From: Sedimentisphaeraceae bacterium JB056
GTDB lineage: Bacteria; Planctomycetota; Phycisphaerae; Sedimentisphaerales; Sedimentisphaeraceae
Assembly: GCA_044440125.1 (NCBI GenBank)
Contig: JBITAJ010000012.1
Location: 128,001-192,000 of the forward strand
DNA: 64,000 nucleotides
Reading direction: 5' to 3'
Under the pieces are notes generated by a model. That model was not told where the DNA came from and did not search any database. It was given only the letters and a program-made list of their open reading frames with translations. Each line of letters starts with the position of its first letter. Within the stretch, counting starts at the first letter, position 1. Positions 16,923 to 63,681 of the stretch are shown piece after piece. Position numbers and translations under genes: made by a program.

Positions 16923-16936
16923 GGAAAGGAGCGATA

Positions 16937-20280: not shown

Positions 20281-20297
20281 ATTTGGAGGAGAAAATC

Positions 20298-27676: not shown

Positions 27677-27703
27677 AAGAAAATTTATAATAGGAGATTT
27701 GTT

Positions 27704-28546: not shown

Positions 28547-28606
28547 CAGTTTGAAATTAAAATCGTGAATTAAAGATAAATTCTATTATTTTTCAAGGAG
28601 CTATTT

Positions 28607-31144: not shown

Positions 31145-33124
31145 ATGAGATTAACAGTTCTTATATATATTCTTCTAATTGCCTCGTTGGGGTGGTGCCT
31201 GAGTGATCAGGATATAGCGGAGATAACCTCCGGTTTTGAAGCAAGACGTGATTCTATGCTTGCTTCACAGGTTGCCAGTCCATATCCATCGATTGACAGT
31301 TTTGTGTGGAATAGACAAGATTTTGCGCTTTCTGCTTTGTATCTTAATACGCAGTTGTCTGAGGCTAATCAGGCTATAATAGATGCCTGTAATTATCTTA
31401 AAGATAATCCGACCGAATATGATGTCGACTTTCATTGGAGAGGCAATCTCTTTTACAGGATATATAAATATTTCTATCATGACAGCGAGTATTTCCCCGG
31501 CAGACTGACAACGGCCGCAGAAGAAGCTATTTATGATATATTCTGGAACTGGGCGAAATACAAGAGTGTATTGTCCGATGCTGATTATTCGCAAAGTCAG
31601 ACATGGTACACATGGGGCAGCGAAAATCATGATGCTATGAGAAAGTCGACAAGTTACAGTGCTGCTGATATATTGAAAGATGCACCTGCTTATCAGAACC
31701 TCGCATTTGATGACGGCTCTACGGCAGCGCAGCAATATGAGGCATGGAACGCATACTTCAAGGAATATTTGAGGGAAAGGGCAAAGAAGGGATTGCTTAT
31801 AGAAGTTGGTTCCCATACCTATTCAAAATATACTTTGCAGGGCTGGTACAACTTTTATGATTTTGCTCCTGATGCCGAGCTTAGGAAACTTGCCGGAATG
31901 TCACTTGATCTCTGGTGGGCAGATTGGGCTCAGGATCAGATTGGAGGCGTTCGCGGGGGTGGTAAGAGCCGTATATATCAGGATGCTGATGAATTAGCAC
32001 GTGATGACAGTGCCTACAGTATGTGCTGGTATTATCTCAATATTGGTACGGCAAGCAATAAACATCCTGGAATGATGTGTTTGGCGACCAGTGGCTACAG
32101 ATTGCCGCCGGTTGTTATAGATATTGCTCTTGATGTTGCCGGAAGAGGAACATATGAAACGTATTCAAGAAGGCCCGGTTTGAATCTGATTCCAAGGCCC
32201 GAAGGAGTTGCGACTGATACAAATGTGCTCGACCCTGATTACGGCGGAATTTTAAGATACACCTATGCAACGCCGGAGTATGTGATCGGAACAAGTATGC
32301 TGGAAAACAGGCCGCAGGAGGATTGGACGGGTATAAGCTGTCAGAATCGCTGGCATGGTATTATATTCAGCATAGATAAGGATGCGAGGATTTTCCCGCA
32401 ATGTGAGGGGCTCCCTCTTGATTATGCCAAGACATACAATCAGCAGTGGTCGGTTCAGAATAAGTCGACCCTGATCGCACAGAAGCTTAGAACCAGCAGC
32501 CATACCGGTGATATGAGGGTTTATTTTTCCGGTGGTTCCAATATGATAATTTACGAAGAAGATGGATGGGTTTTCGGAAGGCTTACAAATGCCTTTGCCG
32601 CAGTCCGTCCGGCATGGGGTACTTACAGTTGGGATGATGCAAATTGGATCCGTTTCAGTGACCCATACGCTCCGGCGATAATAGAGGTTGCCCCAAGCTC
32701 TGATTTTTCAAACGTATTCAGTCTGTTCAAGGCAGAGGTTAAGTCTCACGTTCCGGTTGTTTCTAATGATGTGTTGACTTATGAGGGTTTGGGTGGTTCG
32801 GGAACTTTTACTTTTTACACTAATTCGACGCAATTGCCAGAGATTAACGGCCAGACAATAGACCTTCAACCTGAGTTTACATTCAGCAGTCCGTTCATTG
32901 CGGAAGAATTTGACAGTGGTTTGGTTACTATAAAGAAGGGCAGCAGAGAAGCTGTTTTTAACTTTGATCTTGCAGCAACAGGTTTTTGCGGCGAGTGGGG
33001 ATATTTTGGTTTTGACATTAATAAAGACTGCGTTGTCGATCTATTGGATTATTCCTTGCTGGCGACGCAATGGGCACAGTGTTCGCATCCGGCTTGGGCC
33101 GGTTGTGTAAATCCTGAGAATTGA
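31145..33124 (+). CDS. SENH-family paralog 1 (secreted, putative lyase-like) + C-terminal dockerin-like module
   Basis: Signal peptide; WGSENH; RAKKGLLIEVGSHTY; GVRGGGKSR; FDINKDCVV...TQW. Confidence 0.7.
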   Translation: MRLTVLIYILLIASLGWCLSDQDIAEITSGFEARRDSMLASQVASPYPSIDSFVWNRQDFALSALYLNTQLSEANQAIIDACNYLKDNPTEYDVDFHWRGNLFYRIYKYFYHDSEYFPGRLTTAAEEAIYDIFWNWAKYKSVLSDADYSQSQTWYTWGSENHDAMRKSTSYSAADILKDAPAYQNLAFDDGSTAAQQYEAWNAYFKEYLRERAKKGLLIEVGSHTYSKYTLQGWYNFYDFAPDAELRKLAGMSLDLWWADWAQDQIGGVRGGGKSRIYQDADELARDDSAYSMCWYYLNIGTASNKHPGMMCLATSGYRLPPVVIDIALDVAGRGTYETYSRRPGLNLIPRPEGVATDTNVLDPDYGGILRYTYATPEYVIGTSMLENRPQEDWTGISCQNRWHGIIFSIDKDARIFPQCEGLPLDYAKTYNQQWSVQNKSTLIAQKLRTSSHTGDMRVYFSGGSNMIIYEEDGWVFGRLTNAFAAVRPAWGTYSWDDANWIRFSDPYAPAIIEVAPSSDFSNVFSLFKAEVKSHVPVVSNDVLTYEGLGGSGTFTFYTNSTQLPEINGQTIDLQPEFTFSSPFIAEEFDSGLVTIKKGSREAVFNFDLAATGFCGEWGYFGFDINKDCVVDLLDYSLLATQWAQCSHPAWAGCVNPEN

Positions 33125-33141
33125 TCTTTTTTGGAGATGAT

Positions 33142-35841
33142 ATGAAATTAGTATTGACTCTTTTATCTGTTACAATAATAAGCTCTTCGCTTTTTGCTCT
33201 TACTGACCAGGAGCTTAATGCGGTGCTCGATGGATTTGAAGCCAGACGTGATTCGATGCTTTCTTCACAGGTTTCAAGTCCGTATCCTTCAACCAATTAT
33301 CCTGAAGACGAAAATGTTGGCGGGTATGTTTGGAACAGGCAGGGATTTGCTCTTTCGGCATTGTATCTCAATACGCAATTAGCAGAGGCTAATCAGGCCA
33401 TAATCGATGCATGTAATGCGGAAAAAAATGAGCCCGCTGTTTACGATGAGAGTTTTCACTGGCGCGGGAATGTGTATTACAGGATATATAAATATTTCAA
33501 CAGCAATAGTGACTATTTCCCCGGCAGACTGACGCCGGCTGCAGAAGCGGCTATATGCGACATATTCTGGAACTGGGCGAAATATAAATCAGTACTGACT
33601 GATGCGGATTATTCACAGACAGATACGTGGCTTTACTGGGGCAGTGAAAACCACGATGCTATGCGTAAGAGCAGTTGTTGGAGTGCGGCGGATATCTTGA
33701 AAGATGTTCCTGCTTATCAGAATCTTACCTTTGATGACGGCGGCACTGCTGCACAACATTATGATGCCTGGACAGCATACTTTAAGAAGTATCTTACCGA
33801 GCGAGGTAAGAAGGGTTTACTTTTAGAGCTTGGCTCGCATACCTATCCCAAATATACGGTTCAGGGCTGGTATAATTTTTACGATTTTGCCGGCGATGAA
33901 GATCTAAGTATTCTTAGCGGTAAGTTACTTGATGCATGGTGGGCCGATTATGCACTTAATCAGTTTAACGGTGTTCGCGGCGGTGCAAAGATGAGGGTTT
34001 ATCAGGATGTCGCAACTTCAGGTCTTTCTGATGGAGCTCTTGGCATGTGCTGGTATTATCTTGATATCGGTACTGCGAAAAGCCGCCATCCTGGCGTGAT
34101 GTGTCTGGCAACAAGTGCTTACAGGCTTCCGCTTGTCGTGATGGATATTGCTCTGGATGTTGATGGCAGAGGAACTTATGAAAGCTATGAACGTCGTCAG
34201 GGTTTGCGCGATCAGTCAAAAGAAGATGATATTGAGGAAATAGGCATTGATGCTGAAACTCCGGGTATATTAACCTATGCATATCACAAACCTGAGTTTA
34301 TTTTAGGCAGCGGTATGTGGAATAAACTTCCAATGGATAGCTGGTCTCCTGTGAGCGCTCAGAACAGATGGGTTGGTGCAATCTTTTCCGTAGATGTAAA
34401 CGCGAGAATATTTCCTCAATGTGTTGGGCTTGTCAACGATAAGACATACAACCAGTATTGGAATGTTCAAAATAAAGGCACGCTCATAACCCAGAAACTT
34501 ACTACAAGCACTCAATCTGGAGATATGCGGGTCTATTTCTCCGGCGGCTCAAATATGATAATTTATGAAGAGGATGGCTGGATATTCGGAAGGCTTACAA
34601 ATGCTTTTGCCGCGGTTCGTCCTGCCTGGGGAACATACAGCTGGGATGATGCGAACTGGATCAGATTCAGCGATCCATATGCTCCGGTTATTATGGAAGT
34701 TGCGGCAAGCTCTGATTTTTCAAACGTATTCAGTCTGTTCAAGGCAGAGGTTAAGACGCATGTTCCAACAGTTGATGCTAATGGTGTTCTTACGTATACG
34801 GGGCTACTTGATTCGGGAACTTTTACATTCTACACTCAATCAACGGATCTGCCTGAAATAAACGGCCAGCCTGTGGACCTTGCACCTTCAAAGACTTTCA
34901 ACAGTCCGTTTATGAATGAAGACTGGGATAGCGGTATTATAAATGTTACAAAAGACGATAGAAGCTTGACGATTGATCTCAACTACGATCAAGAGGTTAC
35001 CTGTCAGCCGGTAACATACGACCTTAATGATGATTGTCTTGTTGATAGCGGCGACTTGGAAATTCTTGCCGCAAATTGGCTCGAGGATATTTCTTTCGAA
35101 CCGGTGCAGCAGTCTTTCGTTGATAGTAGCGGAGTTTTAGGGTTATGGCATCTTGAAGCAATAACTCCCGATAGCACTCAGGATTTCTTCAATGATGATG
35201 ATTCTGCCAACTCAGGTAGAAACAACGATTTGGGTATATGGGCAGGCGGTGCTCCTTATGTGAGTGTTATTAATGACGGCAAGTTTGGAAATGCCGTTGA
35301 TATCAATTACAGCGCAGACAGTGTATACCTTCTTTTAGCAGGTAACTGGGATCCGCTTGATACGACGTTTGCTTTCCGCGGATGGATAAGGCTTGGCGAT
35401 GAAGGAGATACGGGCGGATATCTTGCCCACGTTTATGACAGGGTTTATTTATACTGTAATACTACGACGCTTACGTTTAATGTTACAGATGGCGTTGATA
35501 ACGTAATGATAACTGCTGCCCTCGATGATGTTTCCCAGTGGCAATATGTTGAAGCGATTTATACGGCAACAGATATAACGTTAAAAACGAATATTGAAAC
35601 TGTCACTGATGCCTCTATCGGTCCGATATCAGTTAGGCCCGATAAACTCGGTTTCTATATTGGAAGTAGAAAAAATGCAAATAGATTTGTCGGACAGATG
35701 GATGAGATAAGAATCTCAACGGCTGATGAAATCGCTTGTGATGATTTTGCTGTGTTGACAGGTGATTTGAATATTGATTGTCAGGTTGACAATGGTGATC
35801 TGTCTGTGATTGCGCAGCATTGGCTTGAAATCGTTGAGTAA
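33142..35841 (+). CDS. SENH-family paralog 2 + dockerin-like/LamG/dockerin-like tail
   Basis: RBS GGAG, ATG 33142; WGSENH; RGKKGLLLELGSHTY; YDLNDDCLV; FVGQMDEIRIS; GDLNIDCQV. Confidence 0.7.
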   Translation: MKLVLTLLSVTIISSSLFALTDQELNAVLDGFEARRDSMLSSQVSSPYPSTNYPEDENVGGYVWNRQGFALSALYLNTQLAEANQAIIDACNAEKNEPAVYDESFHWRGNVYYRIYKYFNSNSDYFPGRLTPAAEAAICDIFWNWAKYKSVLTDADYSQTDTWLYWGSENHDAMRKSSCWSAADILKDVPAYQNLTFDDGGTAAQHYDAWTAYFKKYLTERGKKGLLLELGSHTYPKYTVQGWYNFYDFAGDEDLSILSGKLLDAWWADYALNQFNGVRGGAKMRVYQDVATSGLSDGALGMCWYYLDIGTAKSRHPGVMCLATSAYRLPLVVMDIALDVDGRGTYESYERRQGLRDQSKEDDIEEIGIDAETPGILTYAYHKPEFILGSGMWNKLPMDSWSPVSAQNRWVGAIFSVDVNARIFPQCVGLVNDKTYNQYWNVQNKGTLITQKLTTSTQSGDMRVYFSGGSNMIIYEEDGWIFGRLTNAFAAVRPAWGTYSWDDANWIRFSDPYAPVIMEVAASSDFSNVFSLFKAEVKTHVPTVDANGVLTYTGLLDSGTFTFYTQSTDLPEINGQPVDLAPSKTFNSPFMNEDWDSGIINVTKDDRSLTIDLNYDQEVTCQPVTYDLNDDCLVDSGDLEILAANWLEDISFEPVQQSFVDSSGVLGLWHLEAITPDSTQDFFNDDDSANSGRNNDLGIWAGGAPYVSVINDGKFGNAVDINYSADSVYLLLAGNWDPLDTTFAFRGWIRLGDEGDTGGYLAHVYDRVYLYCNTTTLTFNVTDGVDNVMITAALDDVSQWQYVEAIYTATDITLKTNIETVTDASIGPISVRPDKLGFYIGSRKNANRFVGQMDEIRISTADEIACDDFAVLTGDLNIDCQVDNGDLSVIAQHWLEIVE

Positions 35842-35860
35842 AGATATTTAGGAGTAGGAT

Positions 35861-37303
35861 TTGATGACCAGGACTTTTTTTTTGAAAGCCTTTTTGATTC
35901 TTTTCGTTTGTGGATTGACTGTTGCTGATATTAAGCTGCCTTCTGTGATAGGCAATAATATGGTTCTTCAGCAAAACAGTGATGCTTCTATCTGGGGATG
36001 GGGCAATGCCGGTGAGAAGGTGACTGTCGCCGGAAGTTGGCATAAAAAGATTTATTCAGCGATTGCTGACGAAGATGGCAAGTGGTCTGTTAAAGTTCTG
36101 ACTCCGAAAGCCGGCGGGCCTTACACACTGACAGTAAAAGGTGATAATCTAATCACTTTGAAAAATATTATGATCGGTGAGGTTTGGCTTTGCGGCGGAC
36201 AGTCTAATATGGCCATGACTTTTTACAGAGAGAAAAAGGCAGGCGATAAAACTATTGTTTACAAGATTGATAATCATGAGCAGGAACGTCTGGCAGCGGA
36301 TTATCCAGATATCAGAGTTTTACGTGCAAAAGCTAATCCCTGGCATTCAGAGACGCCGGTTGATGATGTGAGAGGTTCATGGCAGGTATGTGCTCCTGAT
36401 ATGGCGGAGAATATGCCGGCAGTGCCGTATTTTTTTGGCCGCGAGCTGCATAAAAAGCTTGATGTCCCTGTCGGGTTGATTGTAAACGCCGTACCGGCGA
36501 CCCGTGTTGAGCCATGGACTAACGCGGCAGGTTTTGATTCAGTACCGGAGCTTAAATCGATAGCCTCCGAGCTTAAAAAAGAAGACACTGTGCTTAAAGA
36601 CAAACCGGGTGTTCTTTACAATACCCTGGTTCATCCATTGGTCCCTTATGCGATTCGCGGAGCCATTTGGTATCAGGGTGAATCAAATCTTGGCGATCAC
36701 ATGATCTATTACCACAAGATGAGGGCGTTGATAAACGGCTGGCGAAAGGTCTGGGGACAGGGCGATTTCCCTTTCTATTTTGTGCAATTGGCGCCATGCG
36801 GCGGATTCTATGAAGATATGCAGTTGCCTAAATTGTGGGAAGCACAGGCAGCGGCACTTGATATAAAGAACACGGGTATGGCACTCAATAGCGATCTTAG
36901 CGATTTAGATTTGCATCCCGCTAATAAACAGGATGTAGGCAAACGACTGGCACAGTTGGCATTGGCTAAAAATTACGGTGTCAAAGGTATTGTTTATGAT
37001 GGACCTAGTTATAGATCAATGGAGGTTCAGGATAATAAAATTCGTATCAGCTTTAATAATGCCGGGGGCCCGCTTCAATCGAGAGACGGCAGGCCGCTGG
37101 ACTGGTTTACTATAGCAGGTGATGATAAAGTTTTTATTCCTGCTAAGGCAAAAATTGACGATGATGGAGTGGTGGTTTACAACGAAAAGATTACTCGACC
37201 GGTTGCCGTTCGTTTTGGTTGGAAAAAAGAAGCGCAGCCTAATCTGATGAATGCAGAAGGTTTGCCGGCTTATCCGTTCCGCACTGATGACTGGTCGTTA
37301 TAA
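35861..37303 (+). CDS. Sialate O-acetylesterase-like SGNH esterase
   Basis: NMVLQQ, GEVWLCGGQSNM, GAIWYQGESN, FYFVQLA, DLHPANK, PFRTDDW. Confidence 0.9.
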   Translation: MMTRTFFLKAFLILFVCGLTVADIKLPSVIGNNMVLQQNSDASIWGWGNAGEKVTVAGSWHKKIYSAIADEDGKWSVKVLTPKAGGPYTLTVKGDNLITLKNIMIGEVWLCGGQSNMAMTFYREKKAGDKTIVYKIDNHEQERLAADYPDIRVLRAKANPWHSETPVDDVRGSWQVCAPDMAENMPAVPYFFGRELHKKLDVPVGLIVNAVPATRVEPWTNAAGFDSVPELKSIASELKKEDTVLKDKPGVLYNTLVHPLVPYAIRGAIWYQGESNLGDHMIYYHKMRALINGWRKVWGQGDFPFYFVQLAPCGGFYEDMQLPKLWEAQAAALDIKNTGMALNSDLSDLDLHPANKQDVGKRLAQLALAKNYGVKGIVYDGPSYRSMEVQDNKIRISFNNAGGPLQSRDGRPLDWFTIAGDDKVFIPAKAKIDDDGVVVYNEKITRPVAVRFGWKKEAQPNLMNAEGLPAYPFRTDDWSL

Positions 37304-37383
37304 AAATAGATTTATTTTAGCATCTTGTTTAAGAGTTGATAGTTAGTGTAGTTATGCTTTAAAGCTAATAACAGGGAGATATT

Positions 37384-37497
37384 ATGCGTAAGTTTTTGGT
37401 CCTTTCATCTATTTTGATTTCAATAAACGTTTTTGCTGTCAGCGATAAGGAAATTAATTCACTCAAAGAATTGGTTAAAATATTAAATGCATACTAA
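37384..37497 (+). pseudogene. 37-aa remnant: signal peptide plus first residues of a SENH-family paralog
   Basis: RBS GGGAG; MRKFLVLSSILISINVFA-VSDKEINSLKE resembles FA-LTDQELNAVLDGF and GA-LNDEKIKALKDGF. Confidence 0.45.
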
Positions 37498-37556
37498 TTT
37501 GGTTGCATGTGTGTTTTATTGGTTGATTAATATCTTAAAATCATGAAAGTGAGAAA

Positions 37557-39155: not shown

Positions 39156-39187
39156 AATTTATGTAAATAGGATCAGAAAGTATTATT

Positions 39188-42919: not shown

Positions 42920-42936
42920 TGTGATTGTTGAATATT

Positions 42937-44670: not shown

Positions 44671-44736
44671 GTTATGAAAAAGGGATATACGGAAAATTGA
44701 TTTAACGGAATTTGAAAAAAATTGCAGAGGAAGTTT

Positions 44737-46632: not shown

Positions 46633-46677
46633 GGTTTGATTTGCTCCATCAATAAAAGTGGAAGATTTGATAAGAAA

Positions 46678-46809: not shown

Positions 46810-46825
46810 TTATAAGGATTATATA

Positions 46826-49483: not shown

Positions 49484-49530
49484 AAATATTAAATAAGTTA
49501 ATTGGAATTATATTTATTCGGAGTTATGGA

Positions 49531-52137: not shown

Positions 52138-52237
52138 CCTTGGAAGGATATATGTGATCAAAAAATCATAAGAAATTATTATAGTAAAAGAAAATCACGG
52201 TGAAATTGAATATGCTTTTATTAAGAGGTAAATAAAA

Positions 52238-54106: not shown

Positions 54107-54109
54107 GAA

Positions 54110-55924: not shown

Positions 55925-55958
55925 TTTTTATAATATGATTTAATGATAAAGCTATATT

Positions 55959-57797
55959 ATGATTAAGAAAATACTAAATTCTATTCTGTTCGTGTATCTT
56001 AGTTTGGTTTGCGTTCAATCATTGAAGGCAGATTATCAAGAGCAGTGTGATATGTTTTTTCAGCTTCAAAAAGGTAAGCCTTTTGCGGCAGGAAAAATTC
56101 TTTATGATTGGCGCGATCGCGGAGATTTTACCAGACATTACGGCCAGAGCGTTGTCGTGTTTGCCATGAAGTCGTTCTATCTCGATCAGGATATTGAGCA
56201 GGCGAACAATGAGCTTGTCAAACTCTGCAATTATCATATTGAGCGTCCGCAAACATTTTACGAGATACACAGCTTCCCATCTTTCAGTCAGGCTTTGATA
56301 AGACTGTGCAAACTCTATGGACCCGGCGGAAGCGGGCAGATGTCAGATGAGGCTTATGAGATAATACAGCAGACAATGTGGCTTTGGCTTAACGAAAAAT
56401 CGGATATATCCGAGGCTGAATATGAAAAGTCAAAGACTCTTGTTGTGCGCGATTCGGAAAACCATCACGCTCAGCATTTTTCAACGTGCTGGGGATTTGC
56501 GATGGTTCTCAAGGATAGCGATGAATATAAGAGTCGTAAGCTTAAGGATGGTCTTACGGTTTCGCAGCATTTTGAGAAGTGGAGTGCGTATATAAGCGAA
56601 TATCTGCTGCAGCGAGGCCGCAAGGGTATGCTTGTCGAGATCGCCAGTCCTTCCTATGCAGCGGCAACATTAAAAGCAGTGTATTATGTTTATGATTTTG
56701 CCGAAGAGCCTGTCCTCAAACGAAGAGCAAGTAATTATCTTTCGCTTTACTGGGCTCTCTGGGCACAGGAACAGCTTGACGGTGTTCGCGGTGGTGGAAA
56801 GACAAGAAGTTATGCTAAGTCATCTTTCCGCGGCGAAGATTTCATAAGACGAGCGGCATGGTTTTATTTCGGTATAGGCGATAAGCCTTTCATTCACTCT
56901 ACGATGCTTTGTTTTGCAACGAGTTCATGGGTTATGCCGCAGATTATAGTTGATATTGCCATGGGTTCGAAAGATTACGGCAGTTATGAGATAATTCAAC
57001 GACGTATGGGGCTTGTCGAGAAAGGTTTCAACGAACCGCCTTTATACAAGCTTAGAGGTGATAACGGTGGAATACTCAGGTACAGCTATGTTACCTCTGA
57101 TTACATTCTTGGGTCTCTTATGACAGATGCTTTGCCTAATGAGAGCTGGGCCGCTATAAGCAGTCAGAACCGCTGGCAGGGCGTAATATTTGCTTCTGAT
57201 GTTGATGCGAGAATCTATCCTCATTGTAAAGTTCTTGGTGACAGCAGCTACAATCAATACTGGTCGGTTCAAAGTAAAGGCACGCTTATTACCCAAAAAC
57301 TTGAAACGAGCAAGCATACCGGCGATATGATGGTATGGTTCTCTTCTGCAGGGATCAATGAACCCGTTTATAAAGGTGGCTGGATATTCGCAGATGCAGG
57401 AAAAAGCTGGGCAGGCGTGAAAGTAATTGACGGCAAGTTTTCATGGAGGAAACAGGACAAACCCGTTGAAGGACGTTGGCTGATATTGGAAAACGAATAT
57501 TCGCCTATTATTATGGAGACTGCCGGAAAAGAAAAATTTGACAGCTTTACGGATTTTATTAATGCTGTGATCAGGTCTGGTATTAAGTATAAAGATGACG
57601 TGCTTGTATATGAAAGTATTTACGGTGATGAACTGACTTTCTACAGTGATTATTCATCACGGCCAAAGATCAATGATATTGAGGTGAATTATACTCCAAA
57701 ATTTGTATACGACAGTCCTTTTGTGAAGTCTGTTTATGACAGCGGTGTTGTTGTTATTAAAAACAGTGGTGAATCTGTGGTTCTTGATTTTAATTGA
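55959..57797 (+). CDS. SENH-family paralog 7
   Basis: RDSENH; RGRKGMLVEIASPSY; GVRGGGKTR; SSQNRWQG. Confidence 0.7.
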   Translation: MIKKILNSILFVYLSLVCVQSLKADYQEQCDMFFQLQKGKPFAAGKILYDWRDRGDFTRHYGQSVVVFAMKSFYLDQDIEQANNELVKLCNYHIERPQTFYEIHSFPSFSQALIRLCKLYGPGGSGQMSDEAYEIIQQTMWLWLNEKSDISEAEYEKSKTLVVRDSENHHAQHFSTCWGFAMVLKDSDEYKSRKLKDGLTVSQHFEKWSAYISEYLLQRGRKGMLVEIASPSYAAATLKAVYYVYDFAEEPVLKRRASNYLSLYWALWAQEQLDGVRGGGKTRSYAKSSFRGEDFIRRAAWFYFGIGDKPFIHSTMLCFATSSWVMPQIIVDIAMGSKDYGSYEIIQRRMGLVEKGFNEPPLYKLRGDNGGILRYSYVTSDYILGSLMTDALPNESWAAISSQNRWQGVIFASDVDARIYPHCKVLGDSSYNQYWSVQSKGTLITQKLETSKHTGDMMVWFSSAGINEPVYKGGWIFADAGKSWAGVKVIDGKFSWRKQDKPVEGRWLILENEYSPIIMETAGKEKFDSFTDFINAVIRSGIKYKDDVLVYESIYGDELTFYSDYSSRPKINDIEVNYTPKFVYDSPFVKSVYDSGVVVIKNSGESVVLDFN

Positions 57798-57810
57798 GGT
57801 TAGGTTTTTT

Positions 57811-59892
57811 ATGAAAAAGACAGTTTACTTAGTGGTACTTTTCTGTATATCTTTAGTTTTTGCCGGTAATTTTGATAATCCGATTCAGGATTTGGATTTT
57901 ACTTATTCACAAGAGGCTATTCAGGCTCTGATGCAGCAAGCAGAGGAGACTAAGCCTGATCGCATCAAAGATGCATTTGAAAATACCACCGGCGAAGGAT
58001 TGAGGGAGGGTATGTGCCCGTATTTCGCCGCTCTTTGGCTTGGCAATGACCTTGACAAGGTGAATGCGAGATTGCTGGAATTATACACTACCGAGGATAC
58101 TGACCTTCAGGAAAAATACAGGCTCAATGATCCGTGGTGTCTGGCAGCTAACCAGCAACTTTATCATATGTATTATGCTTTCGGCAGCAAGGGAAATGTT
58201 GCCCCGGGACGTTTATATCCGGAAACGGAGAAGGCGGTGCTTGAGTTTTTGTGGAATCGGCTCAAATACAAAAATGATATTCATCTGGCAAGGCAAAGTA
58301 CATGGTGGATGATAGGTAGCGAAAATCATGATTTGGTTTCTAAGGTGAGCAGTTTAATATCGTCGCAGATTTTTATGAACGAGCCGGACTACAAAGACCG
58401 CATCTATCCCGACCTTGGGACAGGAGGCGGTCATGCTTACTGGTTCCATCATATGTATGCCAAGGAACGCATTAAGGGCCCTGAGGGACGTGCTGATTAC
58501 AAAGATGGTAAAGAGTATACGGCGGCCGATCATTATAATGCGTGGATTAATTATTTTGATGAGTATTTTACAGAGAGGGCGAAGAAGGGATTCTTTCTTG
58601 AGGTTGCATCTCCCGGATATATGGCGGTTAGCGTTTCTTACCTGACCGATATCTATGATCTTTGCGAAGATAAAAAGCTGACAGACAAGGCAGAGAAGTT
58701 TCTTGATCTTGTCTGGGCGGATTGGTCGCAGGATCAGCTTAACGGCGTACGCGGCGGCGGCAAGACCCGTGCAAGCGGACATAATCGCGGCGACCGATGG
58801 GCCGATTCTATGTATAAGATGTCGCGGTTTTATTTTGGCGGTGAAGGTAATTCGGGAACTCATTTCTTCACGCAGCTTCTAAGCAGTTATGAGCTTAAAC
58901 CGATTATCTGGAAGATTGCCTTCGATCGGGAGGGGTTAGGTGAGTTTGAATATATATCCCGAAAGCCCGGTGAGGAGGAGAATGTGTGGCCAAGGCCTCT
59001 GGGAGCTGAACGCACTATGCTGTGCGATACTGAGTCTCGTTTTGTTCGTTACAGTTGGGTGACGCCTGACTATATCATTGGATGCCAGATGGACCATCCC
59101 GCGGCAGTTCACAGTCATTTGAGTTGTCAGGCTCGCTGGCAGGGTGTCATATTCAAAGGAGAAAACGGTCCGAGAGTTTTTCCGACGGCTCTGAAGAAAG
59201 ATGATGATGGCTGCTGGGCTGAAGATACAAGCGGCTACAGCAGGGTTGTGCAGGATAGAAATGTGATGCTGGTTCAGCAGGCTCGCAATTTTGTTCAGGT
59301 GAACCCTGATTGGTTCCCGGGGAAATCAAAATATAATTTTGACTATGGTGTGAGTTTTTACGAAGATCTCGACAATGTGGTTGAGAAGGACGGCTGGATA
59401 TTTGTTGAACATGGAGATGCTTATCTGGCGGTAAGAGTGGTTGTTGGAGAATATTCACAAGGCTGGAGGATATTGAAAGATGATGCTACACCGGGGCTTA
59501 CAAGTGAACTTGTTGAAGACAGTTATCAATGGAGCAAGGATAGGAATTTTATTCATATTAAGGATAATTATGCCGGTATGATTTTTGAAACGTCCCGACG
59601 TGAGCATCACAAAAGTCTTGATGCATTTATTTCCGACATACTTGATAATCCTTTATCTCTTGATAAGACCGTCGTTCCTGGTTGGCATATTCTTCGTTAT
59701 CGTGGTTGCGGCGAAGATGCAAAAGAGATTTATTTCAACCTGGCCAATAATGAGATGCCGATGGTTGACGGCGAAAGAATTGATTATTCTCCAGAGATGC
59801 TTTTTGACAGTCCATATATGAAGTCAGTATACAATAGCGGTGTTATAGAGGTTGTCAAAGGCGGTAAGAAGATGCTTTTGAATTTTAATTAA
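57811..59892 (+). CDS. SENH-family paralog 8 (QMDHP subgroup, no N-terminal CBM-like domain)
   Basis: IGSENH; RAKKGFFLEVASPGY; QMDHPAAVHSHLS. Confidence 0.7.
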   Translation: MKKTVYLVVLFCISLVFAGNFDNPIQDLDFTYSQEAIQALMQQAEETKPDRIKDAFENTTGEGLREGMCPYFAALWLGNDLDKVNARLLELYTTEDTDLQEKYRLNDPWCLAANQQLYHMYYAFGSKGNVAPGRLYPETEKAVLEFLWNRLKYKNDIHLARQSTWWMIGSENHDLVSKVSSLISSQIFMNEPDYKDRIYPDLGTGGGHAYWFHHMYAKERIKGPEGRADYKDGKEYTAADHYNAWINYFDEYFTERAKKGFFLEVASPGYMAVSVSYLTDIYDLCEDKKLTDKAEKFLDLVWADWSQDQLNGVRGGGKTRASGHNRGDRWADSMYKMSRFYFGGEGNSGTHFFTQLLSSYELKPIIWKIAFDREGLGEFEYISRKPGEEENVWPRPLGAERTMLCDTESRFVRYSWVTPDYIIGCQMDHPAAVHSHLSCQARWQGVIFKGENGPRVFPTALKKDDDGCWAEDTSGYSRVVQDRNVMLVQQARNFVQVNPDWFPGKSKYNFDYGVSFYEDLDNVVEKDGWIFVEHGDAYLAVRVVVGEYSQGWRILKDDATPGLTSELVEDSYQWSKDRNFIHIKDNYAGMIFETSRREHHKSLDAFISDILDNPLSLDKTVVPGWHILRYRGCGEDAKEIYFNLANNEMPMVDGERIDYSPEMLFDSPYMKSVYNSGVIEVVKGGKKMLLNFN

Positions 59893-60000
59893 AGTTTCCA
59901 AAATAAGGATGGAGGTGAAAAATGACATAACTTAGTTTTGTGAAAGGTGCGGTTCGTTTAAAAGTAGTAATGATTTATTGTTTTAAGTGAGGTTAGAGTA

Positions 60001-63000
60001 ATGAAAAAAATTGTTATCTCTGTAATGTTGATGTTTGTTATTACTTTATTGGTGAATGCTGATATTGTTGATGACCGAAGTGATGATGTGTTGTCGGGAT
60101 ACATAAACGATCCATGGCCAGACCCGAATTCTACAACAGACGGTGAAAAGCTCTGGGGCAGAGCCGGGTATGCATTGGCGTGTCTGTATATGAATACTGA
60201 TACTGCAAAAGCCAATGACTACATCGATTGGATTCATGACAATTATAATGTGGCCACAGGTACGGATATTGGTTTTGACAGTTATTTCAAGATGCCTATG
60301 CTCTGGCGTTTGTATCTGGATCCAACAACAAATGCAAGGCTGACATCTACGAGTATTGACGACATAGAAGAAATGATGTGGAGATGGGTTTACAGCAGGA
60401 GTACTGTTGCCGATGCACAGGACAGTGTTTGGCGGATTCAGGATAGTGAAAATCATGATGCCGTGCAAAAATCCTGTTATCTCCTGGCATGTCAGGCTTT
60501 GATTGATGCCGGTTCACCTTATGGCCCGAGTGTTACTTTGGATGATGGCAATACTCTTCAAGAACATTATGATGCCTGGGTAAAATACTGGTTTGAATAT
60601 TTCCGCCAGCGTGTCAGAGATGGTTTGTCTTGTGAGATAGCTTCTCCGGGTTATGCAAAATATACCTTAGCGTGTTACTATAATATATATGATCTTACTG
60701 ATAATACTGCGCTTGCATATATGGCTGAAGATATGCTGACGGTTTACTGGGCCGATGCCGCAAGTGATTTTCTGCCTGCGACAGGTCTGCGTGGTGGGGC
60801 TGAGACAAGGGCGTACAAAGACGCTTTGAGTAATGGCAGTGATTCGGTTCAGGATCTGGTATATTGTTATGACTGGCATGATAATGTGCCTGATAATGTC
60901 CATCCTTATCTGCTTACGTCTATAGCTTCTTCATATCGTAATCCTGCGATTGTAGACCTTATTGCTTCTGACAGAACTAAAGAACCTTATATCCACACCA
61001 CGCGTCGTTTTGGTCGCGGAGGTAATTGGGTAAACAACGAATACACTGTTACATTTGATACCGATCAGGCATCCAATATGTCTCGTCAGACTTATGTCGA
61101 TCGGGACTACGTTATGGGTACTCTGTCGCTTGATACTTCTGATGGGTATATCGCTCTTGTCGATCAGAACCGCATGATGGGAGTATTTTTTGCTGCAGAT
61201 GCTGATGACCGAATTGCCATTCATGGTAAAGGTACTTATGACAGCGGGCGAACCGGTATGACCGAAATTCACGGTGTTTGCGGCGATCAGTGCATGATTG
61301 TTGCTCGTGACAGCGGGGCGTATAATAGTGACGGCACAAGAATTTTCCTCTCTGACGGCGAGCTTGAAGATAATATTGTATCTGATTCGGGTTGGATATT
61401 TACCAAGACAGGTCCTTACGGAGCAGACGGCAGGTATTTTGTTCCTGACGATAACTCTGCTGACAAAAGCCGTGAAAATAATTTACTGCTTGGAACCAGT
61501 ACTTCAAGCTTCAGCGGTACAGAACCTGCAATAACCGCAGCCAATACCGGTTATGACAGTACGGGCAGCGCACTGGATTTTGATGGTACTGACGATCTTG
61601 CTTATTCTTCGAAAGGTTGGGCGGGGCACGATTCTGTTGAGATAGACCTTTATTTCAATGCTGATGTTGACAATCTTGGTACTCAGCTTCTTGTCAATGC
61701 TATAAGCACATGGCAGGTTGCGATCAATTATGATGATGTCTCTTTCACTGTATGGACTGATCTTTCTGCACGTACGCTTTCTATTGCCGATGTCGTTTCT
61801 ACAGGCACATGGCAGCATCTCGTTGCAAGCATTGATGCCAGCGGTAATATGAGTCTGGCTGTTGATACCAGTTCCACAAGTGGCAGCGGTGATACTCTTA
61901 AACAGCAGTCAAAAGATATCGTTCTTGGTAATAAACCCGGGACTACCAGATGGCTTAACGGTAAACTCGATGCAGTTGAGATTTCTGTGCCGAGCAGCAG
62001 TGAAGTGCTTTCATGTTGGCAGATGGACAGTGAAGAGTGCCGTGATGTTTATTGCGGTATAAAGATTGCCAATGGTTCCTATACTTCCACGGCGGTAGCG
62101 GCAGGTGTGATGCTTGATCTTTCTGATATGTGGTCCCCGATTATTGTTCAGATGGGACTTGCTGAAGATTATGCGAGCTATACAGCGTTCAAAAATTCCG
62201 TAAAGGCTAACTATGTCGATTATTCAAGCGGCAGGGTTGAGTATTTTTCTGAGAATTATGATAAGTATCGTTTCTGGTCAAACAGTACTACACTGCCGCA
62301 GATTAATGATGCTGATGTTGAGCTCAATCCTACAAAGACATATGATGGTCCGTATCTGTCAGCTTATCACGGCAGTGATGTCGTAACTATCAGTCATCCC
62401 GATGCAAGTGATCTTACTATTGACATGAACTATCATTCAAGTCCGGCGTGGGATGATTACAAGACCGTTGCTTTGTGGCATATGGACATTAGTGTAAGCG
62501 GTGAAGTTATTGATGATGATCTCGAAAATTCAGGAAGAAATAACGATCTTCCTCTGACAGGCGCATCTATTACGACAGGTGATGGCGGTTATTTCGATGA
62601 GGCGTTGAGCTTTGATGGTGTTAATGACGAAGCCTCTGTTACCGGAGCATGGATCGGTGCAGAAGAATTCCAGGCGGATATGTGGATATATCCTACAGAT
62701 GGAGACGGTTCAAATATTGTACTGCAAGCCAGAAATGTATGGTCTATTGGTATTGGAAACGGCAAGCTTTCTCTGACAACATGGAACAGCAACAGCACTG
62801 CTACTGCATTGGCATGGTCAACGAATATTACTTACAATACGTGGCATCGTGTTATTGCTTCCTGTGATGCCGATGGTAATCGCAAACTGACATTGGATGG
62901 TGTAACTATAACTGATAATGCCGGTGCAGGATTGGTTACAGATTCTGCTGCGATTGATATGGGCAATAAACCTGGATATTCACGTTATTATGATGGCAAG

Positions 63001-63681
63001 ATTGATGATGTGAAGATAACGGTTCCCCAGATTACTGCTGCTGATGATACGCCCGCAGAATTTGCTGATGATGGTATTACCATTGGTTTGTGGCATTTTG
63101 ATACTTACTATACTGATGGTGATGTTTATTATCCTGATGATGACAGCGAAAATTCCGGACGTGACAATGATGTTCATGAATACAGCAGTGCTGCTTCATA
63201 TATAAGTCAGGTCTCTGGTGGTTTTGACGGGACTGGTTACGGCTTGCAGTTGGATTATTCTGCAACAGACATATATATGCTTCTGGCCGATAATTGGCCT
63301 GCTGCTGCCGACACTTTCATGTATCAGGGTTGGATAAAGCTCGGATCAGGTGATGGCGGTTATCTTGCTCATATTTATGATCAGGTATGGCTGCATTGCT
63401 ACGAAAGCACGGGCCAGATTACTTTCCAGGTTGATCCTGACACAACCGACAGCACTGACACGGTGAGTATAACAGCGGATATCAGTTCAACTACGGATTG
63501 GCAGTTTATAGAAGCCATTTATGATGGTGATCAGATCATTCTTAAAACCGAGGTGGAAACCGTTGTTTCTGCCGGAACCGGTGTGATAGTTCCTGATCGC
63601 TGCAATGTTTATATAGGCAGTCGAAAAAACAAAAATCGTTTTGTAGGATGTATGGATGAAGTAAAACTTTCTGCACCTTAA
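60001..63681 (+). CDS. SENH-family paralog 9 with three LamG-like domains, one inserted internally
   Basis: QDSENH; RVRDGLSCEIASPGY; LDFDGTDD...GKLDAVEIS; LSFDGVND...GKIDDVKIT; FVGCMDEVKLS. Confidence 0.7.
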   Translation: MKKIVISVMLMFVITLLVNADIVDDRSDDVLSGYINDPWPDPNSTTDGEKLWGRAGYALACLYMNTDTAKANDYIDWIHDNYNVATGTDIGFDSYFKMPMLWRLYLDPTTNARLTSTSIDDIEEMMWRWVYSRSTVADAQDSVWRIQDSENHDAVQKSCYLLACQALIDAGSPYGPSVTLDDGNTLQEHYDAWVKYWFEYFRQRVRDGLSCEIASPGYAKYTLACYYNIYDLTDNTALAYMAEDMLTVYWADAASDFLPATGLRGGAETRAYKDALSNGSDSVQDLVYCYDWHDNVPDNVHPYLLTSIASSYRNPAIVDLIASDRTKEPYIHTTRRFGRGGNWVNNEYTVTFDTDQASNMSRQTYVDRDYVMGTLSLDTSDGYIALVDQNRMMGVFFAADADDRIAIHGKGTYDSGRTGMTEIHGVCGDQCMIVARDSGAYNSDGTRIFLSDGELEDNIVSDSGWIFTKTGPYGADGRYFVPDDNSADKSRENNLLLGTSTSSFSGTEPAITAANTGYDSTGSALDFDGTDDLAYSSKGWAGHDSVEIDLYFNADVDNLGTQLLVNAISTWQVAINYDDVSFTVWTDLSARTLSIADVVSTGTWQHLVASIDASGNMSLAVDTSSTSGSGDTLKQQSKDIVLGNKPGTTRWLNGKLDAVEISVPSSSEVLSCWQMDSEECRDVYCGIKIANGSYTSTAVAAGVMLDLSDMWSPIIVQMGLAEDYASYTAFKNSVKANYVDYSSGRVEYFSENYDKYRFWSNSTTLPQINDADVELNPTKTYDGPYLSAYHGSDVVTISHPDASDLTIDMNYHSSPAWDDYKTVALWHMDISVSGEVIDDDLENSGRNNDLPLTGASITTGDGGYFDEALSFDGVNDEASVTGAWIGAEEFQADMWIYPTDGDGSNIVLQARNVWSIGIGNGKLSLTTWNSNSTATALAWSTNITYNTWHRVIASCDADGNRKLTLDGVTITDNAGAGLVTDSAAIDMGNKPGYSRYYDGKIDDVKITVPQITAADDTPAEFADDGITIGLWHFDTYYTDGDVYYPDDDSENSGRDNDVHEYSSAASYISQVSGGFDGTGYGLQLDYSATDIYMLLADNWPAAADTFMYQGWIKLGSGDGGYLAHIYDQVWLHCYESTGQITFQVDPDTTDSTDTVSITADISSTTDWQFIEAIYDGDQIILKTEVETVVSAGTGVIVPDRCNVYIGSRKNKNRFVGCMDEVKLSAP

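What the first reader, a model, noticed from the sequence alone, without database searches (positions are those of the whole stretch)
31145..63681. Array of nine genes (ten domains) of an unassigned SENH enzyme family: probable new polysaccharide-lyase-like family
Seen: all ten ~600-aa domains keep S-E-N-H, R-x3-G-x3-E-x5-Y, a G-x-x-G-(G/S)-x3-R motif and a later Arg (mostly QxRW). They also share GW(I/V/A)F in most copies and a terminal SP(Y/F)-like motif, with a helical N-half and beta-rich C-half. All genes have signal-peptide-like N-termini. Established: (alpha/alpha)-toroid + beta-sandwich lyases (heparinase II/III, PL12/15/17/21) use an Asn-His pair to neutralise the uronate and a Tyr after a conserved Glu as catalyst. 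Neighbours are a sulfatase and an O-acetylesterase. Inference: a diversified enzyme set for one complex sulfated, acetylated acidic glycan; I recognise no classical GH or PL in the locus.
Basis: partly seen in the sequence, partly recalled or inferred. Interest (0 to 1): 0.85.

Follow-up and report, generated by a model that had tools for sequence, protein, structure and literature searches.

The report
Unclassified lyase-like enzyme family array
Nine neighbouring genes encode ten copies of a large, so far unnamed family of secreted enzymes whose predicted shape matches the bacterial lyases that cut acidic sugar chains, so they probably form a new lyase family for breaking down sulfated glycans.

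Summary
Nine genes (ten domains) at 31145-63681 share invariant SENH, R-x3-G-x3-E-x5-Y and G-x2-G-(G/S)-x3-R, plus a later Arg.

The family has no match in Pfam, NCBIfam or PDB sequences. It is large: 2488 clusters at 50% identity with E<=1e-3.

Asn-His and Tyr sit in the same order as the clan's published neutraliser and Tyr, at a somewhat longer spacing. Profile-profile alignment is not significant. The clan's beta-sandwich His is missing. Residue geometry could not be measured.

Neighbours in 54 loci from other genomes are mostly sulfatases and acetyl-esterases, with some rhamnosidases.

Most likely these are uronate lyases of a new family with a variant active site, acting on sulfated, acetylated glycans. 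Hydrolase or epimerase activity is not excluded. A second unnamed family in the locus has a GH138-like fold.

The parts
26483..27676 (+). GntR-type regulator with a periplasmic-binding-protein-like sensor domain. It is the probable regulator of the locus.
   Evidence: PF00392 E 4.5e-14 and PF00532 E 1e-6. The same head (GntR, N_methyl, LamG3/CBM9) recurs just after the window.
27704..28546 (+). Protein with a prepilin-type N-terminal methylation motif.
   Evidence: PF07963 E 9e-8. A paralogue occupies the same position in L009.
28607..31042 (+). Secreted protein with two LamG_3 modules, a CBM9 module and a dockerin-like C-terminus. It is probably a glycan-binding protein.
   Evidence: PF13385 E 9e-23 and PF06452 E 4e-9.
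31145..33124 (+). SENH-family gene 1 (659 aa), with a dockerin-like tail. SENH at nt 31619-31630, Tyr at 31820.
   Evidence: (E 3e-228).
33121..35841 (+). SENH-family gene 2 (906 aa; likelier start at 33142), followed by LamG_3 and dockerin-like modules. SENH at nt 33643-33654.
35861..37303 (+). SASA-type carbohydrate acetylesterase.
   Evidence: PF03629 E 2.2e-16.
37557..39155 (+). 532-aa protein of unknown family. Not resolved.
   Evidence: Only a sub-threshold GH47 stretch in Pfam. No NCBIfam match. No meaningful PDB sequence hit.
39188..41143 (+). SENH-family gene 3, first domain. SENH at nt 39785-39796.
   Evidence: The nearest relative is the first domain of P0121, which carries the same two-domain fusion.
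41144..42919 (+). SENH-family gene 3, second domain. SENH at nt 41576-41587.
   Evidence: (E 9e-161).
42925..44670 (+). Sulfatase (S1-type formylglycine sulfatase family).
   Evidence: PF00884 E 4.9e-58 and PF16347 E 1.7e-18.
44722..46632 (+). First copy of a second unnamed family ('T family', 636 aa). It is probably a TIM-barrel glycosidase.
   Evidence: No Pfam or NCBIfam match. It is 38% identical to 54110-55924. The fold evidence comes from its paralogue.
46826..49483 (+). SENH-family gene 4 (885 aa), with an extra N-terminal module of about 200 aa and an insertion of about 35 aa between SENH and Tyr. SENH at nt 47849-47860.
49462..52137 (+). SENH-family gene 5 (891 aa; likelier start at 49531), same subfamily as gene 4. 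SENH at nt 50542-50553.
52238..54106 (+). SENH-family gene 6 (622 aa). SENH at nt 52730-52741.
54110..55924 (+). Second copy of the T family (604 aa). The AF2 model resembles GH138, GH84, GH20 and GH67 glycosidases.
   Evidence: AF2 pLDDT 86.6, pTM 0.89. Foldseek best match is the GH138 enzyme BP0997 (6hzg), E 8e-9, TM 0.51. 650 homologues, all unnamed.
55959..57797 (+). SENH-family gene 7 (612 aa), the plain single-domain copy that was modelled. SENH at nt 56454-56465, Tyr233 at 56655-56657, Arg283 at 56805-56807, Arg405 at 57171-57173.
57736..59892 (+). SENH-family gene 8 (718 aa; likelier start at 57811), same subfamily as genes 4 and 5. SENH at nt 58318-58329.
60001..63681 (+). SENH-family gene 9 (1226 aa). 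A LamG-like module is inserted in the beta-sandwich, and two further LamG_3 modules sit at the C-terminus. SENH at nt 60445-60456.
   Evidence: PF13385, three stretches. The profile match is split into aa 57-470 and 679-809.

Best explanation
The nine genes encode secreted members of a large, unnamed enzyme family. Structurally the family belongs to the two-domain (alpha/alpha)-toroid plus antiparallel beta-sandwich superfamily, which holds polysaccharide lyases PL8/12/15/17/21/23/33/35/39/40 and dermatan-sulfate epimerase.

The most likely activity is beta-elimination at uronic-acid residues. In that scheme Asn168-His169 (numbering of the 612-aa copy) neutralise the C6 carboxylate. Tyr233 abstracts or donates the proton. 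Arg283, and Arg405/Gln438 from the beta-sandwich, hold the substrate or stabilise the enolate. They would stand in for the beta-sandwich histidine of the known families, which is missing here.

The nine genes represent old, separately conserved subfamilies. Each probably handles a different linkage or decoration of sulfated, O-acetylated, probably rhamnose- and uronate-containing glycans. They would work together with the locus's sulfatase, acetylesterase, lectin-like proteins and two GH138-like putative glycosidases.

Shown: family membership, conservation, predicted fold, lack of annotation, gene neighbourhoods. Inferred: catalytic roles, lyase chemistry, substrate.
For: Fold:
- The AF2 model has pLDDT 89.1 and pTM 0.91, with helices to about residue 335 and strands after that.
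- Foldseek against the PDB gave 62 matches at E<=1e-3. The top ones are DS-epimerase 1, heparinase III, PL35, PL15, PL39, PL8, PL17 and PL33 (prob 1.0, E 6e-7 and weaker).
- In an exhaustive comparison with 48,161 chains, the 13 best rows are all lyases of this clan or DS-epimerase, each spanning both domains.

Conservation over 282 domains:
- Asn168 278 of 282, Tyr233 281, Glu227 280, Arg283 280.
- Gly278/279 276/280, Gln438 275, Ser166 273, Glu167 274.
- His169 265, Arg405 266.

Collinearity with the known catalytic pattern:
- Published neutraliser-to-Tyr pairs are N240/Y294 (PL12), N192/Y246 (PL35), N336-H337/Y390 (PL15), N186-H187/Y239 (PL39) and N201/Y258 (PL17) (PMC12088678 Table 4, passages seen).
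- DS-epimerase uses His205/Tyr261 (PMC8006597, passages seen).
- In this family the pair is N168-H169/Y233, with spacing 65.
- The genome's own heparinase-III-like proteins align to 4mmh/5jmd through GNH and DG-x3-E-x4-YH.
- A permissive hhalign puts SENH on that GGNH, and G223/E227/Y233 on that G/E/Y.
- SENH and Tyr233 each lie at the N-terminal end of a helix, two helices apart (H167-184 and H231-247). In a toroid that places them on the same face.

Context:
- All nine genes start with a hydrophobic, signal-peptide-like stretch.
- Fusion partners elsewhere are LamG, CBM96, Big_5, a T9SS tail, PATR, DUF1961 and GDSL esterase.
- In 54 loci from other genomes, sulfatases form the commonest neighbour cluster (33 ORFs in 15 loci). 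GFO/IDH/MocA follows (6 loci), then DUF1961 (5 and 4), SASA esterase (4), GH106 rhamnosidase (3) and PcRGLX-type lyase (3). RhaT and CE15 each occur in 2 loci.
- SusC/SusD head a three-copy array in a Paludibacter MAG.
- The genome holds 72 sulfatase matches.

Old subfamilies:
- The window copies are scattered over the family tree. The tree needs 7 changes of the 'window' label, against a shuffled mean of 7.5.
- Most copies have a closer relative in another organism than in the window.
Against: - No sequence-level link to any lyase family. There is no Pfam hit at E<=0.01. hhalign against the genome's own heparinase-III-like proteins gives Prob 3.1% (27 against 13 sequences) and 0.5% (282 against 30). 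The residue correspondence therefore comes from an alignment without statistical support.
- The beta-sandwich His of the Tyr/His/Asn triad is absent. No column in residues 340-612 has His in 25% or more of the sequences.
- His169 is Leu, Ile, Arg, Ser or Lys in 17 of 282 domains.
- Unsaturated-uronyl hydrolases (GH88/GH105), the usual partners of endo-lyases, are nearly absent. There are 4 weak partial matches in the genome, none on this contig. One appeared among 236 neighbour ORFs sent to Pfam, in one locus of the 52 annotated.
- Two invariant glutamates (E167, E227) could equally serve a hydrolase.
- No coordinates were available, so no distances were measured.
- There is no biochemical evidence of any kind.
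Confidence: 0.6

Rival explanations
1. The family consists of glycoside hydrolases built on the same toroid-plus-sandwich scaffold. Two invariant carboxylates (for example Glu167 and Glu227, or Asp197) would act as acid and base. The substrates need not contain uronic acid; they could be sulfated rhamnose- or fucose-rich glycans.
For: - Glu167 (274 of 282), Glu227 (280 of 282) and Asp197 (256 of 282) are conserved.
- GH88/GH105 partners are almost absent.
- The beta-sandwich His is missing.
- Neighbours include rhamnosidases, and sulfatases outnumber every other neighbour class.
Against: - In the exhaustive search, every match that covers both domains is a lyase or the related epimerase. No hydrolase covers both domains.
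- A Glu a few residues before the Tyr is also present in the lyases: E-x4-Y in PL12 and Glu242/Tyr246 in PL35. Glu227 therefore does not argue for hydrolysis.
- Asn-His plus Tyr plus Arg is the lyase pattern.
Confidence: 0.2
2. The proteins are polymer-level uronate C5-epimerases, like dermatan-sulfate epimerase. They would remodel glycans or prepare them for other enzymes rather than cut them.
For: - It uses His205/Tyr261 plus a second Tyr.
- The paper argues that small active-site changes turn a lyase into an epimerase (PMC8006597, passages seen).
Against: - Nine to twenty-five secreted copies, placed in catabolic loci with sulfatases, esterases, SusC/SusD and rhamnosidases, fit degradation and not modification.
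- There is no match to DUF4962 or any other Pfam family.
- Lyase structures score as well or better.
Confidence: 0.07
3. The family is real but not new. It may already be a CAZy family, or be described in a paper, while having no model yet in Pfam or NCBIfam and no structure in the PDB.
For: - dbCAN/CAZy could not be queried.
- Word searches cannot find a family that has no name.
- Several recent PL and GH families were founded on biochemistry alone (my recollection).
Against: - There is no hit in Pfam-A (models to 2025), NCBIfam release 20 (June 2026) or PDB sequences of 2026, by phmmer or by profile.
- Of the 120 best homologues listed, every one that carries a name is 'hypothetical', except one named for its fused GDSL esterase.
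- The Atlas's 30 nearest clusters have no common Pfam family.
Confidence: 0.12
4. Non-catalytic glycan-binding or structural surface proteins.
For: - One paralogue elsewhere on the contig (C12:233148-234998) has lost SENH, Glu227, Tyr233 and Arg283.
- Many copies carry lectin-like modules.
Against: Near-invariance of a small set of polar residues (Asn, Tyr, Glu, Arg, Gln) across 282 domains that are otherwise only 20-50% identical is the signature of an active site.
Confidence: 0.03

Closest known systems
PL12 heparinase III (B. thetaiotaomicron BT4657, 5jmf/5jmd; P. heparinus HepC, 4mmh/4mmi; 4fnv)
   Same: - Asn-His at the start of a toroid helix.
- A Gly-x3-Glu-x4/5-Tyr motif further on.
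- Published catalytic residues are Asn240, Tyr294 and His424.
   Different: - 4-8% identity, and no Pfam Hepar_II_III match.
- hhalign is not significant.
- Asn-to-Tyr spacing is 65 (97-101 in one subfamily) against 54.
- There is no counterpart of His424.
- Arg283, Arg405 and Gln438 are invariant here.
- The genome has about 30 true PL12-like genes that form a separate family.
PL35 glycosaminoglycan lyases (GAGase II 8khv, GAGase VII 8khw; chondroitinase 9o3q)
   Same: - Same two-domain build.
- Asn192/Tyr246 with Glu242 four residues before the Tyr.
   Different: - 7-10% identity.
- The triad His401 has no equivalent here.
- The substrates of PL35 are animal GAGs. The contexts here point to sulfated, acetylated, rhamnose-associated glycans.
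PL15/PL17/PL39 exo- and oligo-uronate lyases (Atu3025 3a0o, exoHep 6lja, Alg17c 4nei, Dp0100 6jp4)
   Same: - An adjacent Asn-His pair (N336-H337, N186-H187), with Tyr about 53 residues later.
- Exo-acting lyases do not need GH88/GH105 partners (my knowledge). That would fit the scarcity of those partners here.
   Different: - No sequence match.
- Their beta-sandwich His (H555, H413, H405) is missing here.
PL8 chondroitin AC / hyaluronate / xanthan lyases (1cb8/1hm2, 1rwa, 1j0m)
   Same: - All catalytic residues lie in or near the toroid, without a beta-sandwich His.
- The PL8 set is Asn, His and Tyr plus an Arg about 54 residues after the Tyr (the Arg is my recollection). Tyr233 to Arg283 here is 50 residues.
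   Different: - No Lyase_8 Pfam match.
- In PL8 the His lies 9 residues before the Tyr, not next to the Asn.
Human dermatan-sulfate epimerase 1 (6hzn)
   Same: - His205/Tyr261 chemistry on the uronate C5.
   Different: It is an epimerase of a eukaryotic biosynthetic pathway. It matches DUF4962, which these proteins do not.

Membership tests
Heparinase II/III-type lyases (PL12/15/17/21/35/39) | N-terminal (alpha/alpha)n toroid followed by a C-terminal antiparallel beta-sandwich. | tested here: met
   [not shown]
Heparinase II/III-type lyases (PL12/15/17/21/35/39) | Sequence match to the family models (Hepar_II_III_N/C, Alginate_lyase, DUF4962) or to solved members. | tested here: not met
   No Pfam family at E<=0.01 for any of the nine genes. 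PDB phmmer and profile searches gave nothing. The iterated HMM of the genome's own PL12-like genes does not pick them up. hhalign Prob 3.1% and 0.5%.
Heparinase II/III-type lyases (PL12/15/17/21/35/39) | Asn (often Asn-His) neutraliser and a catalytic Tyr about 53-57 residues later, facing one cleft. | tested here: inconclusive
   Asn168-His169 and Tyr233 are conserved in 278, 265 and 281 of 282 domains. Their order matches the published residues, but the spacing is longer: 65, or 97-101 in one subfamily. They align to GNH and Tyr only in a non-significant alignment. No coordinates were available to measure the cleft.
Heparinase II/III-type lyases (PL12/15/17/21/35/39) | Catalytic His contributed by the beta-sandwich domain (His424, His401, His555, His413, His406, His405). 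| tested here: not met
   No alignment column in residues 340-612 has His in 25% or more of the 282 domains. The conserved polar residues there are Ser401, Gln403, Arg405 and Gln438.
Heparinase II/III-type lyases (PL12/15/17/21/35/39) | Beta-elimination producing 4,5-unsaturated uronate ends. | not testable with these tools
   Needs an enzyme assay.
PL8 lyases | Asn/His/Tyr (plus Arg) active site within the toroid domain, and a Lyase_8 sequence match. | tested here: inconclusive
   [not shown]
Dermatan-sulfate epimerase family | DUF4962 N-domain and a His/Tyr/Tyr triad with a metal site. | tested here: not met
   No DUF4962 match. The fold is similar. The H-x-H metal-site pattern of the beta-sandwich is absent.
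GH138 (for the second family, 44722-46632 and 54110-55924) | TIM-barrel catalytic domain with helical C-terminal domain, and sequence membership. | tested here: inconclusive
   Foldseek best match is 6hzg at E 8e-9, TM 0.51, 10-11% identity. There is no Pfam, NCBIfam or PDB sequence match.

The most novel reading that the evidence does not exclude
The SENH proteins would found a new polysaccharide-lyase family, numbering thousands of sequences in Verrucomicrobiota, Lentisphaerota, Planctomycetota, Kiritimatiellota, Bacteroidota and gut or rumen Bacillota. The family would have re-invented the active site of the heparinase/chondroitinase clan: Asn-His and Tyr are kept, and the beta-sandwich histidine base is replaced by arginine and glutamine.

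Together with a second new GH138-like family, sulfatases and acetylesterases, it would form the missing machinery for a class of sulfated, acetylated rhamnose/uronate glycans. Candidates are algal or cyanobacterial exopolymers, and pectin-like side chains in guts. No degradation pathway for these is known to me.

The nine subfamilies in one operon-like array would then map one enzyme to each linkage of a single very complex polymer.
Probability: 0.4. Interest if true: 0.78.

Novelty: new variant of a known kind. Interest (0 to 1): 0.62.

Why it matters
Sulfated algal and microbial glycans are a large carbon pool, and the enzymes that break them down are mostly unknown. This family is big: 2488 clusters at 50% identity. 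It is entirely unannotated and sits in polysaccharide-utilisation loci in both aquatic and gut bacteria.

If it is a lyase family, it adds a new CAZy family with a variant catalytic set to a well-studied clan. It would turn many 'hypothetical proteins' in PVC-group genomes into annotatable enzymes. It would also offer nine ready-made subfamilies for mapping the structure of an unknown substrate. The plain 612-aa copy is a convenient first target for expression.

Tried and rejected
- **Sequence searches of the SENH proteins.** Pfam, NCBIfam and PDB (phmmer and profile) gave nothing.
- **Profile-profile comparison.** hhalign against the genome's own heparinase-III-like genes was not significant with a shallow or a deep alignment. 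The global mode gave nothing. I use the permissive alignment only as a pointer.
- **Model coordinates.** I looked for them in the script box, to measure distances between SENH, Tyr and Arg. None are provided.
- **Paper searches.** (PL43-PL48 as words, which returned almost only unrelated hits; DUF1961, one irrelevant paper) found no description of the family. One search failed on a term format and was re-sent.
- **GH88/GH105 as a test of lyase function.** There were only 4 weak partial matches in the genome. One appeared among the 236 neighbour ORFs annotated. This does not support endo-lyase action, but it is compatible with exo-lyases.
- **Recent local gene amplification.** Rejected. Pairwise identity is 21-65% and the copies are scattered in the tree.
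- **Vertical inheritance of the expansion.** Not supported. Only 3 of 20 related genomes (one genus) have the family, with 2-3 matches each, against 28 matches here. 0 of 20 have the T family.
- **Rows left out.**
  - The ninth gene is not in the 282-domain alignment, because its domain is split by an insert.
  - Only domains covering more than 450 profile positions were kept.
  - The tree used 110 of 139 representative domains plus 23 own rows.
  - Loci L044 and L052 were dropped from neighbour annotation, because my ORF picker kept a long opposite-strand ORF over the match.
  - Singleton neighbour ORFs under 200 aa were not annotated.
  - In one search, 38 of 61 long representatives were scanned.

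Full report
**What is there**

The window is contig C12:128001-192000 of a 4.54-Mb genome in 33 contigs. Between 26.5 kb and the end of the window, every long ORF lies on the + strand. Gaps between them range from -62 to 253 bases.

After a GntR-type regulator, a prepilin-motif protein and a LamG3/CBM9 protein, there are nine genes of one family. One of them, 39188-42919, holds two copies. Interspersed are a SASA-type acetylesterase, a sulfatase, a 532-aa unknown, and two genes of a second unnamed family.

- SENH, R-x3-G-x3-E-x5-Y and G-x2-G-(G/S)-x3-R are in 10 of 10 domains.
- A later Arg is in 10 of 10.
- GW(I/V/A)F is in 9 of 10.
- A terminal (S/G)P(Y/F) is in 10 of 10.

The domains are only 21-65% identical, yet each matches a family profile at E 1e-72 or better.

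**The family is large and unnamed**

- None of the nine proteins matches a Pfam catalytic family at E<=0.01. Only LamG_3 modules and a weak dockerin stretch are found.
- The six SENH proteins tested against NCBIfam match nothing at E<=0.1.
- The PDB holds no sequence relative, by phmmer or by a 27-sequence profile.
- A word-indexed search found 756 relatives. Of the 120 listed, every one that carries a name is 'hypothetical', except one named after a fused GDSL esterase. Ten of the 120 carry DUF1961 and two carry GDSL domains.
- An exhaustive profile search of 1.84 billion representatives found 2488 clusters at E<=1e-3, 1492 at E<=1e-10 and 694 at E<=1e-30.
- The protein Atlas's 30 nearest clusters have no common Pfam family and are mostly from Verrucomicrobiota.
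- Named genomes with a copy include Opitutae and other Verrucomicrobiota, Lentisphaerae/Victivallales, Planctomycetota, Kiritimatiellae, Paludibacter/Bacteroidales, Armatimonadota, Ignavibacteriales, and rumen or gut Bacillota.

**Fold**

The model was built from an alignment of 27 sequences. AlphaFold2 gave a confident model of the 612-aa copy (pLDDT 89.1, pTM 0.91). It is helical to about residue 335 and beta-stranded after that.

- Foldseek against the PDB returned 62 matches at E<=1e-3. They are led by human dermatan-sulfate epimerase 1, heparinase III, a PL35 chondroitinase, the PL15 exo-heparinase, and PL39, PL8, PL17 and PL33 lyases, at 7-12% identity.
- An independent comparison with 48,161 chains gave the same picture. 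The 13 best rows are all lyases of this clan or the epimerase, and each spans both domains.

The scores are middling, and the tool warns about helical folds. The two-domain coverage and the uniformity of the list make the fold assignment sound.

**Active-site reading**

Over 282 domains from many organisms, the most conserved residues are:
- Tyr233 (281), Glu227 (280), Arg283 (280), Gly279 (280)
- Asn168 (278), Gly278 (276), Gln438 (275)
- Glu167 (274), Ser166 (273)
- Arg405 (266), Arg219 (266), His169 (265)

A recent PL35 paper tabulates the clan's catalytic residues (PMC12088678, Table 4 and passages seen):

| Family | Residues |
|---|---|
| PL12 | Asn240 / Tyr294 / His424 |
| PL35 | Asn192 / Tyr246 / His401 |
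| PL15 exo-heparinase | Asn336-His337 / Tyr390 / His555 |
| PL39 | Asn186-His187 / Tyr239 / His405 |
| PL17 | Asn201 / Tyr258 / His413 |
| PL8 | Asn183 / His233 / Tyr242 |

DS-epimerase uses His205/Tyr261/Tyr473 (PMC8006597, passages seen).

The SENH family has Asn168-His169 and Tyr233 in the same order. The spacing is 65, against 53-57 in PL12/15/17/35/39. It is 97-101 in the subfamily with an insertion.

The genome's own heparinase-III-like proteins align to 4mmh and 5jmd through GNH and DG-x3-E-x4-YH. By my count along that alignment, these are Asn240 and Tyr294. A permissive hhalign places SENH on GGNH, and Gly223/Glu227/Tyr233 on that Gly/Glu/Tyr.

In the model, SENH lies at the N-terminal end of helix 167-184 and Tyr233 lies at the N-terminal end of helix 231-247, two helices apart. 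In a toroid those ends lie on the same face. This is inference from topology.

**What speaks against a simple membership**

- The hhalign results are not significant: Prob 3.1% with E 0.014, and Prob 0.5% with E 0.12. An iterated HMM of the genome's roughly 30 PL12-like genes never picks up a SENH protein.
- The beta-sandwich histidine of the clan's triad is missing. No column in residues 340-612 has His in 25% or more of the sequences. The conserved polar residues there are Ser401, Gln403, Arg405 and Gln438.
- His169 is replaced in 17 of 282 domains.

The pattern Asn, His, Tyr plus an invariant Arg 50 residues after the Tyr resembles PL8, where no sandwich His is used. The PL8 Arg is my recollection. 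I therefore read the family as a separate branch of the clan with a variant catalytic set.

**Context and substrate**

The genome is rich in sulfatases, with 72 matches. It has 25 ORFs (26 domains) of the SENH family. Twelve of them are on this contig.

Directly after the window the head module repeats: GntR, prepilin-motif protein and LamG3/CBM9. It is followed by another SENH gene, a GH43 and another SENH gene.

I then examined 54 loci from other genomes, which yielded 424 ORFs, 70 of them SENH. The neighbour clusters were:

| Neighbour | Loci |
|---|---|
| Sulfatases (33 ORFs) | 15 |
| GFO/IDH/MocA oxidoreductases | 6 |
| DUF1961 (two clusters) | 5 and 4 |
| SASA(+GDSL) esterases | 4 |
| GH106 alpha-L-rhamnosidase | 3 |
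| PcRGLX-type lyase | 3 |
| GH28+GH16 | 3 |
| RhaT | 2 |
| CE15 glucuronoyl esterase | 2 |

Arrays of three or four copies occur elsewhere:
- With SusC/SusD in a Paludibacter MAG.
- With GH106, esterases and sulfatases in Pirellulales and Chthoniobacter MAGs.
- With the second unnamed family in a Puniceicoccaceae and a Bacteroidales MAG.

Further singleton neighbours add GDSL, SASA and AXE1 esterases, a PL10-like protein and a 3-keto-disaccharide-hydrolase domain. GH88 appears only once among all 236 ORFs sent to Pfam. The genome itself has only four weak GH88/GH105 fragments.

Fusion partners in long relatives are lectin or display modules: LamG, CBM96, Big_5, PATR, a T9SS tail, DUF1961 and a GH115 C-domain.

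The picture is of secreted catabolic enzymes for sulfated, O-acetylated glycans, often linked with rhamnose metabolism. That the substrate contains uronic acid is inferred from the fold and from the second family.

**The second family**

The genes 44722-46632 and 54110-55924 are 38% identical. They have 650 unnamed relatives and no Pfam, NCBIfam or PDB sequence match.

The AF2 model (pLDDT 86.6) is closest to the GH138 enzyme BP0997, which targets rhamnogalacturonan II (E 8e-9, TM 0.51). GH84, GH20, GH67 alpha-glucuronidase and GH89 follow. The Atlas gave the same lead.

GH138 and GH67 act on alpha-linked uronic acids (my knowledge). This fits, but does not prove, a uronate-containing substrate.

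**History of the array**

In a FastTree of 133 domains, the window copies are scattered. The tree needs 7 changes of the 'window' label, against a shuffled mean of 7.5. Most copies have a closer relative in another organism than in the window. The two-domain fusion is also found in P0121.

Only 3 of 20 related genomes, all of one genus, have the family, with 2-3 matches each. None of the 20 has the second family.

The array is therefore a collection of old subfamilies, and the large set is particular to this lineage among those searched.

**Verdict**

It is plausible but unproven on chemistry.

My estimates are:
- About 0.6 for uronate lyases with a variant active site.
- 0.2 for hydrolases.
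- Under 0.1 for epimerases.
- Separately, about 0.12 that a CAZy family already covers these proteins.

It is a new variant of a known kind. It is of solid interest to carbohydrate enzymology and marine or gut glycan turnover, but it is not a new principle.

Noticed in passing
window 44722-46632 and 54110-55924: Two genes of a second unnamed family (650 relatives, all hypothetical). The AF2 model is closest to GH138 (6hzg, TM 0.51), then GH84, GH20 and GH67. This is probably a new TIM-barrel glycosidase family. It co-occurs with SENH arrays in 2 of 54 foreign loci (L055, L061).
   Followed up: partly
window 37557-39155: A 532-aa protein with a signal-like N-terminus and no family. Pfam shows only a sub-threshold GH47 stretch, NCBIfam shows nothing, and there is no PDB sequence match.
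   Followed up: partly
window 26483-31042 and L009:61-5327: The same three-gene head (GntR regulator with a sugar-binding-like domain, prepilin-methylation-motif protein, large LamG3+CBM9 protein) precedes both this array and the next one just past the window. It looks like a repeated locus design of this organism.
   Followed up: partly
window 30900-31042, 32980-33124, 35000-35100, 35740-35841: Short dockerin-like Asp/Asn-rich motifs (weak Dockerin_1 hit, E 0.006) sit at the C-termini of the LamG/CBM9 protein and of SENH genes 1 and 2. This hints at anchoring or assembly of these enzymes.
   Followed up: no
window 60001-63681: In the ninth SENH gene a LamG-like module of about 200 aa is inserted inside the beta-sandwich domain. 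The profile match is split into aa 57-470 and 679-809.
   Followed up: partly
G000 C12:233148-234998 (outside the window): A divergent paralogue has lost SENH, Glu227, Tyr233 and Arg283. It may be a non-catalytic member. Paralogues on C3 have Ile or Arg in place of His169.
   Followed up: partly
whole genome G000: The genome holds 28 matches to Hepar_II_III_C, corresponding to about 30 heparinase-III-like ORFs. Several lie next to SENH genes on C3, C21 and C22. It also holds 72 sulfatase matches in 4.5 Mb, but only four weak GH88/GH105 fragments.
   Followed up: partly
window 7859-16058: A TetR regulator is followed by a UbiA prenyltransferase, a radical-SAM/SPASM enzyme, a diacylglycerol-kinase-like protein, an AIR-synthase-related protein, an old-yellow-enzyme-type reductase, an aminotransferase and an NAD epimerase. 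This is an unexplained small biosynthetic cluster.
   Followed up: no
window 16895-21761: A sigma-70 region-4/HTH protein, an ABC-type ATPase fragment and an ORF with a terminase large-subunit nuclease domain (PF17289, E 2.6e-6). This may be a remnant of a prophage or another mobile element.
   Followed up: no
window 46826-47450 and 49531-50150: SENH genes 4 and 5 (and relatives on C3, C28 and C12:200835) carry an extra N-terminal module of about 200 aa with no Pfam match.
   Followed up: no
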